Source: Octopus sinensis (lineage: Eukaryota). From it: a stretch of DNA of 64,000 bases. A program made the position numbers and the translations under genes. The notes under the pieces were generated by a model. That model worked only from the letters and a program-made list of their open reading frames with translations. It had not been told where the DNA came from and searched no databases. This document shows, one piece after another, positions 3,365-61,976 of this stretch (its first letter is position 1; each line of letters opens with the position of its first letter). Location of the stretch: assembly GCF_006345805.1 (NCBI RefSeq), contig NC_043015.1, positions 2,604,001 to 2,668,000 of the forward strand, written 5' to 3'.

Positions 3365-3520
3365 ACATTATTTGCATTTCACACTTATTTGTCATCATCT
3401 TCTTTATTGTTAACACGACGTTTCCGCTGATATACTCTCCAGACTTCATCGTTTGCTTGGGGAAATTTCGAACCTGGGTTTCCATTTAAAATGTATTTTT
3501 CGATGTTATTATTATTATCA
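3365..3520 (-). mobile_element. Penelope-like pLTR fragment with degenerate minimal hammerhead (3412-3456)
   Basis: Minus strand reads aaAC-GATGA-agtctggagagtatatcagcg-GAAACGTC-gtgtt; same family as 56131-56257. Confidence 0.6.
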
Positions 3521-3599
3521 ATATTATTATAGATAGATAGGTATACATTCATACATACATATGTATATATATACATACATACATATATATATATGTATA

Positions 3600-3813
3600 T
3601 ATAAGTATATGAAAGAATGGAGTTGAACGACTAGTTAACAAATATCCTTTATTTTCGACATATGTTTCGAAAGCTGCATATTCCTAATTCCGAAGGAATA
3701 AGGAGTACTCCTTATTCCTTCGGAATTAGGAATATGCAGCCTTCGAAACATATGTCGAGAATAAAGGATATTTGTTAACTAGTCGTTCAACTCCATTCTT
3801 TCATATACTTATA
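3600..3813. repeat. Near-perfect ~214-bp palindrome with no spacer; left part of a (TA)n-flanked element 3600-3970
   Basis: Arms 3600-3706 and 3707-3813 centred on GGAGTACTCC, 2 mismatches seen; contains GAAACATATGTC-GAG-AATAAA starting at 3745. Confidence 0.95.
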
Positions 3814-4079
3814 ATTTTAAAATAAAAATACACATTTTCGCATGAAGACACGTAGTCTATGCCCTAGGGACGTAGCTTCAACCGTGTTCTTTCTGATGTG
3901 AATTTGCTACCCAGGTATCGGTTATCTTTCGAATTATCCTTAATAAGATAATTCATTCAATTACTCAAATATATGTATATATATATATTATATATATATA
4001 TATATATATATATATATATATATAATATATATATATATATATATATATATATATATATATATATACTTTGCACTACATC

Positions 4080-56452: not shown

Positions 56453-58839
56453 CCCCCTCCTCCTTCTTATTGAGGGCAAATATCCGCCAAACGTCAATAA
56501 TGTAAATAATGTAAAATGTGTACGTATATTTTTACATATTATCGTCAAGAAAAATACGCTACCGTAAAAAACAATTCTCATATGAACAACAAAATCATAT
56601 ACTTATGCAAACGAGCCTATGTATATACACACACACATATGTATGTATGTAAGTATGCATGTGTATATGTGTGTATAGGTATGTGTATATATAAATATAT
56701 GTGTATATATATATATATATATATATATATATATATATATATAATATATATATACATATATATATATATATATTATATATATATATATATATATATATAT
56801 ACATTATATATATATATATACATATATATACATATATATACATATATATATATACATATATATATATATATATATATATATATATTTATGTATATATGAG
56901 TGTGTGTATGTGTATGTGTGTGTCTGTGTGTCTGTGTCTGCACACTTGTGGTATGCTGAAGAATTGGGTAAGATGACTATGAATGAATTATATTAAACCT
57001 GTGACATTTTGCGCCCATCAATTTCTACCCTCATTAATAAATATCGTGTTTGCTTCCAAGTAAACTGTCATGTGTTTGTTGGAAGAAAATTTCAAAGGTA
57101 ACAAGCAGGGATTTCTTCCGAAAATTACGAAACTCTGGCAACGTCATCCTATCAATCCCTTGCTGAAAAGATTTTCGCACCTCACGACATTCATGCTAAC
57201 ATTATTGTAACAAAAAAAAAATCAGATTTTAGCGTTACCAGAGGTGCCTGTGTCGACAGCTTATTTTAGGAGGAGAAGGGATAATCTGACCTAAGGTTTG
57301 GGTATCCTGCAACTGCAGTCACAAACGCCGAACAAAAACATATGTTAGACATATGACCTAGCACGACAGGAAGAAATGTGTGGAGCGTTTTGACCTAATT
57401 CCATTATCGTATTTTGCTCGCCCTATGATCTGTTCAGTGAAACCTAGTGCGTGCATGGGTGCGTACGCAGATTCACGTACACACACTTATATGCACACTC
57501 ACACACACATCTCTCTCTCTCTCTCTCTCTCTATATATATATATATATATATAAATATACTTACATATATATAGAGAGAAATAGATAGACAGATATACAC
57601 ACATATGCACATGTACACACACACACGTATATATATATATATATATATACCTGTTGTGCAAGATTTATTGGCTAAACTGGCAAAATGACCATTCCGAAAG
57701 ATAACAATATATATATATATATATACATATATACATACATACATACATACATACACGCACACACACATACACACACACACATATATATATACATATATAT
57801 ATATACACACGTATATTTATTAGTTAAAGAAGTTCTTCAGAACCTCATGACATAATTATTCTCCCCTTTCACAAAGAGCTTTAACGTAGCTATAACACAG
57901 ACTTAAACCTAGTAACTCAATGTCTATAAAAACAAAATAAAATAAAATAAATTGTAACATGTTATTTCCTATTAGTATAATTTCCTGGAAGGAATTACTT
58001 GTCTGACTGCAATTTCCTCTGCAATACTTATTTCCCCTTATTTGCTTTCCTGATTAGGTGTGTGTACATACGCCTTTCCGTCAGTGTATATTTGGGATAC
58101 ACTATGAGTATGTGCTTATGCATGTGTCTATTACATACAAATTGAAAGAGGGATATGCCTATGCAAGTATTAGGTTTTTCTGGTTATATGATTTTATATT
58201 TGATTTTTCCTTTTTCCATCTTTATTTTATTCTCAAGTATTGTGTTATTTGGTATAATTCCTATTTGAATATTTCCGTCCGTAAGTAATTTATGAATGTA
58301 TTGTTTATTATTTTCAGCGTTGCTATTTCTCTATATTCTTGTTTTGTTTATTTTTTTATATTCCCCCACATATATCTCTTTGCTCTCGTATATAAAATCA
58401 TATATTCCAAAATATTCTAAGAACTTAAATAGAATTATATTATTTATTTCTCCCCTGTATATAAAATATTATAAATGTTTGGTTTGGTACGTTGTTGTGT
58501 TTGCCTTATTAATTCTATATGAATGCAATTTATGCATCAATGCTCTCAGCACATCATTTCGTTATTTTCTGATTGAGCATGAAGTTTCATAAAACGAACA
58601 AATATGTAAGACATATACGAACAATATATACGCACACTTACTCTAGCACATAAACATACACACGCCAGAACATATATGCACGCGCAAACAGACGTGCGCG
58701 CGTACTTAAAGCAAATATGCATTATGTGTAAAAATATTTGTGCTGAGCATTGTATTAAAGCTATTTTAAATACGTATTTTTAAGCATCGTTACACTTACA
58801 TATATGCTAAAATTACTGAGAGAAAACACATCAAACGTA

Positions 58840-59756
58840 CAGAGTGTTCGGTTAAATCTGATGAATTTTATGACTCGTTTATTTTTTCAGGAACATCGTA
58901 ATGTATTGCTGAACCTTCGACGGCGTTCGAGAGCACAAAATGAAAATGCATAGTTGAGCTGTTTGTTGACACAGAGGTTTGGAAATTGTTTGAATATTGG
59001 TAAGGATGTAGCTCTATAATAACGATTCAATCTGAGTGCCAGAATGCCAAGGTCCTGACCGATGCTCAATGCACTCTGAATACACTATAAGGGTTGTAAG
59101 ACGTGACAAGGCGAGCTGCAACAAGTGTACGAAACTTTGGCTAGCAGGACGTCACATCAGCCTTTCTGACTCAATCTGCAAACCAGAATTTTCATTTAAC
59201 AACTACAAAGCTAAAATTCAAACGGAAACGTGAATCTGCCGCATACTGTGTTGAATTCCTAGCTGGAAAGGTTTATTAATCGAAGGGCATATGCCTGGTA
59301 GTAGGAATACAGTTCTTGTCATACCTTTGGAAAGATCAACAGTGGTTTCTCTACAACATCACCAGGCATAGTTTCAGGCATCTTAATCCCCAAGGTTATA
59401 GCCCAATCCCTATCGACTACTCTGCGTGGGGATTAGCTGAGAAAGTCACCAATCAATCGCATTGCTTGCAAGACCAAGTTGTACTGTTGGTACATAACAC
59501 GGTGGCGTCCGAAATTGTTCAGATGGACACAGTCTGAAACGAATGAAACCGGGCTTCAGGGTCGTTTCTCCTGTTGTATTGAAAGCTGGGGGAGATTAAT
59601 TTTAGTAAAATGTTTCGCCTCATACTACCTATTAAAATGCTTTTAATTTTTGAAAAAATTACTTTGAATATTGGATGGAATATTTTCTTTTCTTTTCTTT
59701 TATTTCATGCTAAAAGTGAAACTGAGCCTGAACTCTATATATGTGAACACTCCTGC
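58840..59756 (+). mobile_element. Tc1/mariner-superfamily element, internally deleted and decayed
   Basis: PIPIDYSAWGLAEKVTNQSH (compare SPDxNPxDYxxWG); putative TIR ends TA-CAGAGTGTTC and GAACACTCCTG. Confidence 0.7.
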
Positions 59757-61935
59757 ACACATACTGTTTTTGATAAATGGTATTTGGTTGAACTAGAAAG
59801 CTATTGCTAAACTCTCGCAGCTATTTAAAAGATAATGGCTTTTAATTCGTCAAACGTCACAAGACACTTCTCAACTATGATTCATTTGTGAAAGGAGGTC
59901 GTAACCTGCATGCACTACAACATATGCAATTTGCCTTTCAATCTATTGGTTAGAATTTACATATTTCTGTTATTTCGATTATTGTTTATAAATTATCATA
60001 TTACCTATAACAATATTCCCTGTACAGATTTTAAATTGCATAACACATTCACAGACACGCACAATCAAAATTATACACTCAGGAAATAATTATTCGTAAT
60101 TTATTAAAATACGATGAAAGTTAATTGCTATAATTCAAGTTTATGAATATATATGCTTTCTGTCAATTTTGTAAGTTGAAGTACTTGTGAGAATATGTTT
60201 TCTATTGTAGAACTAATTAACTTTTATATGAAAGTTTATGTTATGTAGATTTCATTGTGTAATTGTCACTTATAAATCAACAGGTTTCTAAATATGTATA
60301 AGTTTATCGATTCGTATAACATTAAATATGATTATCTGGTCTGGTCGGGCTTAAGGAGATGGGAACATATTCAAATCGTGATATCTACGTCATTAAATCT
60401 ATTTTCTATTTCATTATGTGCATTAATAAACACAAGTAGAACCAACAGTTGGAAGATATACGCTTTGCTATTATTGCATAAAAGGTTCGATACAATTGCT
60501 TGGCGCGATAGACTACTGTCTTTTTGCCCCATAACTTTAGGTCGATACAACGCTTGTGAATGAAAATAGACGGTATCTATATGGACACACGATAATCCCT
60601 ATAATTCATCTCTACTTATGAGCCAAATTACTAGTTTTTCTTATTTATATTGCAGTAATTATTATTAAAATGTAGATAACAAATGCGCGTATATAACGAA
60701 TACTTATCCAAATTTAAGAGATGTATGAGGCTACTGAATTTCGGAATTCGAACTCGATGTAGAAGTTCTAAATATTAATTTTTCTAGGTAAAATTGATAA
60801 TCATTTTATAAATTTCAAACTCGTACACATACAATATCCACACCAACGTTCCATGGAAAATTCTCACATATAGCATGAACAACAGCGTGCTTCTTATCCT
60901 CCTTGTCTATAGACATTATATCTCAAACAACAGCGCTTACTCACACAGTGAAGTAATTATTCGTAATACGTTTACTGATAAATTATTTCTTTCATTCACC
61001 TCATATATTAAGCTACTGCATTGTTCCTAATTAATTAACCAAACGCATAATATGACATGCGCTAAGCACTGTAAAACGAATTATCGACTCAAATATATAT
61101 AAACAGCCATATAACAGTTGTTTATAATTATCAGTTAAAACGAATTTTGTTACTGCTGAGGTTAAAATATCTTATTACGAGCTATTGGGCAAATAACGGT
61201 TTAGTAATATATTTCTCCATTCTCATTGCATTGTAGATCAATATGTCAATTAGGAAAACTAACAAGCAAAGCACATTTGTCTAACACACTGTGTATGAAA
61301 CAAGTAGTTAAATGGGAAATAATTGCTGTGCCAATAGTACATAATTTCATCAAATATTCGCACGCAACATAGGGCATTCAACAACTGAGCAAATCTGTTA
61401 TGTTCCATATATTTTTGATGTCGAACTAACATCGTCGTTTGTGTTTTGTATATTATTGTATTCTGCTGAAACGCATCTCCAACACATTGTATTAGTTATG
61501 CAATTAGAATGACGTCGACAAAATCCTGTCGTTTTCTTAATCGTTTTTAAAAAGTATGTTATCAGTAGAGACTACACCGCGTAGAGAAATTAATAATTGT
61601 CGGATTTGTAACAGAGCGCCATAGTAGACGTGTATAAGTTGCTTTTCGAAAATATATTGCACACGATGCGAACAAGGACGGTGGGCGTTACCTCTAACAT
61701 CGTAAAAAAGTAATACACTTACGTATATTACAACAGTTGCAGAAAAATCATCCACCGTAATGAATATGGTTTTAATATAGACATGTATAATCGAGCTAAC
61801 ATTATTTTCGGACACATTCGTTCACACATACGCATAACTACTGATATATAGTCAAACATAGACAATAAAAGGTATGACTACAATACTCGTATAAATATGA
61901 AGAGCATAAATAGGGGCTTCACATGAAGCATCTTT

Positions 61936-61976
61936 TTATTGCTCCATCAGATAATATATCTGATAAGGAGCAATAA
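61936..61976. repeat. Short hairpin
   Basis: TTATTGCTCC-ATCAGATA / TATCTGAT-AA-GGAGCAATAA. Confidence 0.75.

What the first reader, a model, noticed from the sequence alone, without database searches (positions are those of the whole stretch)
3365..61976. Recurrent system: unrelated microsatellite-embedded fold-back elements carrying hammerhead ribozyme cores
Seen: several short non-coding elements with no mutual sequence similarity share one architecture. They sit in or beside (TA)n or other simple repeats, and most have an inverted copy of one end (3600, 20808, 21670, 22682, 25209, 25810/26833, 27175, 56131, possibly 138 and 61936). Five of these families show hammerhead core pieces (xTGATGA, stem II, GAAA, palindromic or absent loop III, NUH). 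Known: Penelope-like elements carry minimal or short-helix-III hammerheads in their pLTRs and often leave inverted pLTR fragments; non-autonomous hammerhead retroelements (retrozymes) exist in plants and some metazoans. Inference: this genome hosts a diverse, dense population of non-autonomous PLE or retrozyme-like ribozyme elements with a microsatellite preference, roughly one per 6 kb here.
Basis: partly seen in the sequence, partly recalled or inferred. Interest (0 to 1): 0.75.

Follow-up and report, generated by a model that had tools for sequence, protein, structure and literature searches.

The report
Penelope retroelement ends, one rewired hammerhead
These fold-back repeats are cut-off tail ends of seven abundant repeat families (three shown and four likely to be Penelope-type jumping genes) whose intact copies elsewhere carry hammerhead self-cutting RNA motifs; this is mostly known biology, but one family has a hammerhead wired in a scrambled, split order that is predicted to cut and that I could not find in print.

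Summary
Partly confirmed. Eight insertions from seven multi-copy families are real; 20808 lies inside an unrelated long repeat, and 25209 and 61936 could not be assigned. No copy inside the window keeps an intact hammerhead, but copies elsewhere do.

Families at 3600, 22682 and 26833 are ends of protein-coding Hydra-clade Penelope-like elements (PLEs), not non-autonomous elements. Those at 138, 21670 and 27175 are non-coding head-to-tail units (retrozyme-like). 3365 and 56131 are one family. Fold-backs are head-to-head insertions with one long and one short end (37 of 47). All of this is published PLE biology.

The exception is the family at 27200-27826. Its hammerhead blocks run in the non-circular S-G-C order, and the core strand is opened between A9 and G10.1 by two extra helices. 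All three stems covary across subfamilies, 1,450 exact motif matches exist, and 8 of 29 copies start at or just after the predicted cut (1 expected). Cleavage is untested, and the window holds only the 5' half. This scan reported the same layout, and PLE-end sets, before on other DNA of this genome.

The parts
1..186 (+). Family I 3' end; 492-nt head-to-tail non-coding unit with a type I hammerhead. This copy's two hammerheads (one per arm) lie about 100 and 300 nt before the window start
3353..3505 (-). Family A copy; minimal type I hammerhead decayed at about 3410-3455
3604..3706 (-). Family B inverted arm, short end, next to (TA)n
3707..3968 (+). Family B direct arm with tail; Hydra-clade PLE end, truncated inside stem II; GAAA box 3745-3748, NUH 3754-3756, first core box missing
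21668..22085 (.). Family D head-to-head pair (short arm left, long arm right), truncated 3' of the hammerhead; family is a 560-nt head-to-tail non-coding unit. Right end approximate
22688..22915 (.). Family E head-to-head pair, truncated 3' of the hammerhead; end of a Hydra-clade PLE with an 859-codon open frame. Right end approximate
25652..26151 (-). Family G inverted arm with tail, hammerhead decayed
26359..27177 (+). Family G direct arm, short end; decayed hammerhead about 27071-27118; old Hydra-type PLE 3' region
27175..27202 (-). 28-nt inverted piece of family H (copy of 27513-27540)
27200..27826 (+). Family H partial unit crossing the head-to-tail junction; non-coding unit of 796-886 nt
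27738..27826 (+). 5' half of the split S-G-C hammerhead: closing-helix strand 27738-27742, hairpin 27743-27784, stem II 10.x strand 27785-27789 (one substitution), NUH 27809-27811, stem I strand 27812-27816, stem II 11.x strand 27821-27825; copy breaks off at G12
55885..55930 (-). 3' tail of the family A copy, separated from its body by an inserted 5S-derived piece
56126..56257 (-). Family A copy; minimal type I hammerhead about 56165-56210 with C3 changed to U
56471..56526 (+). Short inverted 3' piece of family A beyond the (CTT)n tract

Best explanation
The elements are 5'-truncated 3' ends of seven multi-copy retroelement families: three are ends of protein-coding Hydra-type Penelope-like elements, and four have no coding frame in the copies examined and are likely copied by such enzymes. 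Inferred mechanism: the PLE protein nicks both strands of a (TA)n target and starts reverse transcription at two fixed internal sites of the RNA. The two cDNAs stop early and are joined at their truncated ends. This gives a fold-back with one long and one short arm, which usually loses or splits the hammerhead. Shown: family membership, open frames for B, E and G, head-to-tail units for D, H and I, type I hammerheads in A, B, D, E, G and I, and long/short asymmetry. Family H carries a hammerhead in S-G-C order whose stem II partner lies upstream, so A9 and G10.1 are joined through two extra helices. It is predicted to cut its own RNA once per unit, giving monomers whose 5' end is often where copies begin.
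For: Multi-copy families (first-look candidates, not copy numbers): A 3374, B 1295, D 1087, E 42 and 1127, G 2722, H 439, I 779. Coding links: B has terminal repeat, broken RT-EN frame, terminal repeat in L127; E has an 859-codon frame with KWK, DKT, YRDD, CxCX5C and GIY-YIG without CCHH, 48% identical to B over 319 aa; G has sense-strand EN and RT matches upstream in L319 and L318. Intact type I descriptor hits: A 14 of 29, B 22 of 24, D 7 of 13, E 8 of 18, G 4 of 18, I 7 of 10. (TA)4+ just 3': B 22 of 24, D 12 of 13, E 18 of 18, G 15 of 18, I 10 of 10, background 150 of 614. One long plus one short end in 37 of 47 pairs (37 of 40 fully classed, p about 1e-8), matching the two start sites shown in vitro for an Anolis PLE (PMC11167929, passages). 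H: 1,450 exact motif matches, 0 in the reversed control; two-sided changes in stems I, II and III, 96 cells against 39.7 shuffled, 0 of 500; 8 of 29 copies chosen by a downstream pattern begin -2 to +11 nt from the predicted cut, 1.0 expected, p 1e-5, 5e-4 after correction.
Against: No copy inside the window has an intact hammerhead, so these copies are relics. Rfam found no hammerhead at gathering score in 10 of 10 family loci, and none among the best 150 of 238 window matches shown. Pfam gave no RT or GIY-YIG match for the three frames, so clade assignment rests on motifs and no tree was built. No coding partner was found for A, D, H or I. Loci were best BLAST matches, which inflates intactness and inverted-arm rates; (TA)n was counted for any arm in D, E, G and I. 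Covariation cells count sequences: about five subfamilies, and the stem II changes come from one. One stem III pair is broken in all 10 copies of that subfamily. The alternative downstream stem II still pairs 89% through G-U. Most of the start peak lies 2-11 nt 3' of the cut, which stalling at a pseudoknot could also give. For the Anolis PLE, hammerhead cleavage was not needed in vitro.
Confidence: 0.85

Rival explanations
1. All the elements are non-autonomous retrozyme-like units forming a distinct microsatellite-embedded system.
For: D, I and H are head-to-tail non-coding units of 560, 492 and 796-886 nt. A looks like a short unit with a tRNA-like head; the hammerhead part follows within 250 nt in 14 of 25 loci.
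Against: B, E and G run into RT and endonuclease frames. 20808 has no hammerhead. The shared architecture is that of published PLE insertions (PMC8557442).
Confidence: 0.05
2. The fold-backs are MITE or foldback DNA transposons.
For: Inverted arms and TA-rich targets. F (25209) could be one.
Against: The spacer between arms varies (114-997 nt in B, 14-1306 nt in A), the two ends differ (37 of 47 long plus short), and the linked proteins are RT-EN.
Confidence: 0.03
3. The family H motif is a plain type-SGC hammerhead (core strand intact, stem II made with the downstream G-run), or a standard type II/III hammerhead assembled from two tandem units.
For: The downstream register pairs in 89-91% of cells. 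Tandem copies exist, and covariation cannot tell a monomer pseudoknot from pairing between units.
Against: The upstream register gives 96.7% pairing with three Watson-Crick swaps in 9-10 of 30 copies, and the downstream G-run has its own partner before the hairpin. The downstream register relies on G-U pairs and is unpaired at its outer pair in 8 of 30. Many truncated copies start near the cut.
Confidence: 0.15
4. The family H fold is a structural or protein-binding element derived from a hammerhead and no longer cuts; the 5' pile-up reflects reverse-transcriptase stalling.
For: The peak lies mostly just 3' of the cut. Minimal PLE hammerheads cleave poorly (PMC4209133). Eight of nine Xenopus retrozyme dimers did not cleave (bioRxiv 2026.07.22.740005).
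Against: The core boxes and an NUH triplet are kept across subfamilies whose stems have changed (the boxes were part of the search pattern, the NUH block was not). Starts drop sharply 5' of the cut: 1 in the next 70 nt.
Confidence: 0.25

Closest known systems
Hydra clade of C-terminal EN+ PLEs (Craig et al. 2021, PMC8557442; read: abstract, passages, section 11, supplement hits and part 24 of 59)
   Same: B, E, G: RT plus C-terminal GIY-YIG, DKT, RWK-like motif, CxCX5C linker (E), no CCHH, (TA)n targets, type I hammerhead, inverted truncated copies, tail.
   Different: Units are somewhat longer than 3 kb, tails are 70-170 nt rather than 30-40, and no tree placement was done.
Minimal hammerheads of metazoan PLEs (Cervera and De la Pena 2014, PMC4209133; read parts 1-2 of 4)
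   Same: Type I, short stem I, extra nucleotide after A9, absent or palindromic loop III, pairs on opposite strands 100-700 bp apart.
   Different: B has a long branched stem II; G lacks the usual G10.1-C11.1 closure; I has a 4-bp stem III.
Animal non-LTR retrozymes (PMC7229834, passages; bioRxiv 10.64898/2026.07.22.740005, parts 1-3 of 5, supplements not seen)
   Same: D and I: non-coding head-to-tail units with a type I hammerhead, proposed to be PLE-mobilised.
   Different: Mostly dispersed as head-to-head pairs. H has no type I hammerhead. Circular RNA was not tested.
Type-SGC hammerhead, HRIMA-1 (Eckert et al. 2023, PMC10085705; read parts 1-5 of 8, supplements not read)
   Same: Block order S-G-C, short linker from stem I to stem II, conserved core.
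   Different: Reported from metatranscriptomes and not from genomes of known organisms. That paper assumes the CUGAnGA block is uninterrupted; here stem II's partner is upstream and two helices sit between A9 and G10.1.
Naiad PLEs, e.g. Naiad_Ovul (PMC8557442 supplement)
   Same: The published 3' end shows, by eye, the same order of strands, hairpin and closing helix; it was flagged only as 'HHR_half_core'.
   Different: H has no open frame and no tested sequence alignment to Naiad; that Naiad RT moves H is inferred.

Membership tests
EN+ Penelope-like elements | RT plus GIY-YIG frame linked to the terminal repeat (B, E, G) | tested here: met
   broken in B and G, 859 open codons in E
EN+ Penelope-like elements | RT plus GIY-YIG frame linked to the terminal repeat (A, D, H, I) | tested here: not met
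   D, H, I are head-to-tail without a frame; none found for A in 29 plus 25 loci, not excluded
EN+ Penelope-like elements | Inverted 5'-truncated copy and optional tail at one end | tested here: met
   for H seen by eye only
EN+ Penelope-like elements | Hammerhead in the terminal repeat | tested here: met
   family copies; none intact inside the window
Hydra clade | RWK-like and DKT motifs, CxCX5C linker, no CCHH in the endonuclease | tested here: met
   E protein P0001 against section 11 of PMC8557442; DKT also in B, linker not seen in B
Hydra clade | (TA)n insertion preference | tested here: met
   B 22 of 24, E 18 of 18, G 15 of 18, background 24%
Hydra clade | Generally shorter than 3 kb | tested here: not met
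   B repeat period about 3.2 kb even with an internal deletion; E about 4 kb; a tendency in the paper, not a strict criterion
Hydra clade | Placement in the clade on an RT tree | not tested
   no reference Hydra proteins held as loci
Animal non-LTR retrozymes | Tandem non-coding units | tested here: met
   D 560 nt, I 492 nt, H 796-886 nt
Animal non-LTR retrozymes | Type I hammerhead in the unit | tested here: inconclusive
   met for D and I; not met for H, whose order is S-G-C
Animal non-LTR retrozymes | Self-cleaved linear and circular monomer RNA | not testable with these tools
   only contigs of runs guessed to be RNA were available
Type-SGC hammerhead | Block order S-G-C with covarying stems I and III | tested here: met
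Type-SGC hammerhead | CUGAnGA block directly followed by its stem II strand | tested here: not met
   stem II covaries with an upstream strand (against 107)
Type-SGC hammerhead | Helix joining the other sides of stems I and II | tested here: inconclusive
   not found in that form; a helix extending stem III paired 92% in 59 copies
Type-SGC hammerhead | Site-specific self-cleavage | not testable with these tools
   indirect only: 5' starts near the site
MITE / TIR DNA transposon | Fixed terminal inverted repeats with matching ends | tested here: not met
   variable spacers and unequal ends

The most novel reading that the evidence does not exclude
Family H is a protein-free retroelement of an animal genome with an active hammerhead in a new wiring: non-circular S-G-C order with the catalytic strand opened between A9 and G10.1 by two stacked helices. 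It cut its RNA in vivo while spreading, and the same fold is the hammerhead thought to be missing from Naiad retrotransposons.
Probability: 0.6. Interest if true: 0.8.

Novelty: new variant of a known kind. Interest (0 to 1): 0.55.

Why it matters
The window-wide pattern is ordinary and shows how much of this genome's 'unknown' repeat content is PLE debris (5.4% of this window). Family H matters more. If it cuts, the hammerhead core can be opened at a point a published classification treats as fixed, non-circular hammerheads occur in animal genomes at more than a thousand copies, and the statement that Naiad elements lack hammerheads would be a search artefact. The pile-up of 5' ends near the predicted cut also offers a genomic test of the open question whether PLE hammerheads cleave in vivo.

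Tried and rejected
Rfam scans: none of the hammerhead models hit the 10 family loci at gathering score; of 238 window matches only the best 150 were shown, none a hammerhead. Pfam: no RT or GIY-YIG match for three frames. Homologue search for P0001 gave 5 proteins, four unnamed at 35-42% identity; not used for clade placement. ARAGORN called no tRNA in 10 of 10 family A loci, so 'tRNA-like' is by eye. F (25209): 1 match by DNA and only its own two arms by pattern; unassigned. J (61936): 1 match by DNA; a 17-nt pattern hit 5 other places, 4 of them one old family with a type I hammerhead visible in L383, but no alignment beyond 17 nt; inconclusive. The lone core with stem at 18670 is single-copy. 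20808 rejected as part of the system. One search was mis-aimed at a flank and is not used. The H row was dropped because its TA-rich query gave spurious arms. Expression: no RNA holder listed; contigs of four runs guessed to be RNA cover family H, which shows neither strand, ends nor level and is not counted as evidence. Hydra-type fragments lie near 5 H loci, none placed as an upstream frame. Lunse et al. 2017 on dimeric PLE hammerheads is not held, so I could not check it for this layout. Several internal coordinates were counted from sequence rulers, not computed, and may be off by a few bases.
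Full report
Context. The window is G000:C19:2604001-2668000 of a 2.72-Gb genome, 33% GC and rich in microsatellites. It looks octopus-like: the SINEs are ones I recall from octopus, and a flank in L084 resembles the published octopus Naiad end. I label the cited elements A (3365, 56131), B (3600), C (20808), D (21670), E (22682), F (25209), G (25810/26833), H (27175), I (138) and J (61936).

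Observation. Masked self-BLAST confirms inverted arms at B, D, E, G and H and shows that 3365 and 56131 are one family. F has 35-nt arms. In the window alone the hammerhead claim is weak. A loose scan gave 9 hits against 6.6 +/- 2.8 in shuffles. Five began with C3 (0.8 expected), but none of those is at a cited element. A full type I descriptor gave 0.

Families. Genome searches show A, B, C, D, E, G, H and I to be multi-copy. F and J returned only themselves by DNA search. C is an internal position of an old repeat of 2 kb or more without a consistent hammerhead in 12 loci. In fetched loci, excluding the window's own and overlapping ones, an intact type I hammerhead was found for A in 14 of 29, B 22 of 24, D 7 of 13, E 8 of 18, G 4 of 18 and I 7 of 10. 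They fit the minimal PLE hammerhead of PMC4209133. The window copies of B, D and E are truncated inside or 3' of the ribozyme, those of A and G are mutated, and I's hammerheads lie just before position 1. These loci are best matches, so the rates are upper-side.

Autonomy. B: L127 holds terminal repeat, a broken RT and GIY-YIG frame, and a second terminal repeat. E: L302 holds an 859-codon frame with the Hydra-clade marks KWK, DKT, CxCX5C and no CCHH (criteria from PMC8557442 section 11), 48% identical to B. G: sense-strand endonuclease and RT matches lie upstream in L319 and L318. Pfam recognised none of the B and E frames and no tree was built. D (560 nt), I (492 nt) and H (796-886 nt) repeat head to tail with no frame, as non-LTR retrozymes do (PMC7229834; bioRxiv 2026.07.22.740005). 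A often starts with a tRNA-like head and an (AAT)n tract (14 of 25; not called by ARAGORN). I found no coding link for A; an earlier scan note claims one.

How the fold-backs arise. B, D, E, G and I end in (TA)n far above background, A does not. Each family has two fixed 3' ends. Of 47 head-to-head pairs, 37 have one long and one short end, 3 have equal ends and 7 have an intermediate end (p about 1e-8 on the 40 fully classed). The H row was dropped as unreliable. An Anolis PLE cuts both target strands and starts reverse transcription at two internal sites that define the tail (PMC11167929, passages), and inverted truncated copies are typical of PLEs (PMC8557442). I infer that both primed cDNAs were inserted and joined at their truncated ends. 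Variable spacers and unequal ends exclude MITEs. Arms only 80-85% alike in D and G argue against an assembly artefact.

About 300 nt further on, family copies carry the cleavage block, then the GAAA block, then the CUGAnGA block. This is the non-circular S-G-C order of Eckert et al. (PMC10085705), who found it in metatranscriptomes and none in genomes of known organisms. A tight pattern has 1,450 exact matches and 0 in the reversed control; divergent subfamilies add up to 147 matches of a narrower pattern. An earlier scan note suggested a split core, which I then tested.

Of 97 distinct motif copies, 65 had the upstream part; I aligned 58 of them plus one more. With stem II paired to an upstream strand, 95.2% of cells pair and 94 show two-sided change against 34 in shuffles. 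In a hand-picked set of 30, balanced over subfamilies, stem I has three swapped pairs (12, 13 and 5 copies), stem III two (8 and 10), and stem II three (10, 9 and 10); 96 cells against 39.7, 0 of 500 shuffles, slid controls 42-45% paired. The alternative downstream stem II pairs 89%, mostly by G-U. The strand after A9 instead pairs with a stretch before a hairpin that precedes G10.1, so two helices sit inside the core strand. Cells count sequences: the stem II swaps come from one subfamily, and one stem III pair is broken there. The published Naiad_Ovul end shows the same layout by eye and was flagged only as a half core.

Sign of cutting. Among 78 motif-selected copies, 19 start within 15 nt upstream of the GAAA block. 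As a control I took the first 30 of 277 matches of a downstream pattern (29 independent, a few shared with the first set). Eight start between 2 nt before and 11 nt after the predicted cut, 3 in the 51 nt 3' of that, and 1 in the 70 nt 5' of it. Expected 1.0; p 1e-5, or 5e-4 corrected for window choice. This fits reverse transcription running off a self-cleaved 5' end; stalling is the rival. The window's own copy breaks off at G12, so it is inactive.

Literature. Searches found no paper describing a split or S-G-C hammerhead in animal retroelements. The library lacks most subscription papers, Lunse et al. 2017 was not held, and supplements of Eckert et al. and of the bioRxiv preprint were not seen. 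A recent octopus repeat annotation does not contain the word ribozyme in its main text (PMC13282606, passages). This scan noted both the PLE-end sets and the split hammerhead earlier on other DNA of this genome; those notes are leads, not support.

Verdict. As posed, the finding is known PLE biology with new members, and partly mis-specified. Family H's ribozyme is a new variant with good comparative support and no bench test. Interest 0.55.

Noticed in passing
window 56032-56130 (-): 5S rRNA-derived piece (Rfam 64 bits) sits inside the family A copy; the copy's 3' tail resumes at 55885-55930.
   Followed up: partly
L084:1850-1960: Flank carries a close relative of the published octopus Naiad 3' end with the same split hammerhead layout.
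   Followed up: partly
family G, e.g. L092: Stem II closes without the usual G10.1-C11.1 pair in the copies that pass the descriptor.
   Followed up: no
family A, L001-L030: C3 is changed to U in 7 of 28 scored copies without a matching change at position 8 being required.
   Followed up: no
window 10064-10964: 438-bp near-perfect direct duplication containing a SINE copy.
   Followed up: no
window about 19500-20970: Old non-coding-looking repeat of 2 kb or more, 1348 candidates, about 80% identity, class not determined.
   Followed up: partly
window 18600-18680 (-): Lone CUGAnGA box with a long wobble-rich stem and GAAA box; single copy in the genome search.
   Followed up: yes
L355, L364, L373, L375: A LINE open frame follows the (AAT)n tract right behind family A's tRNA-like head, suggesting that LINE targets this tract.
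   Followed up: no
L381-L384: Old repeat family ending in (TA)n with a type I hammerhead; shares 17 nt with the hairpin at window 61960-61976.
   Followed up: partly
family H motif, distal to stem III: Invariant purine-rich internal loop with tandem G-A potential, possibly a kink-turn; not tested.
   Followed up: no
window 31542-33621, 35528-35782, 49539-50164: Clusters of tandem and inverted SINE copies.
   Followed up: no
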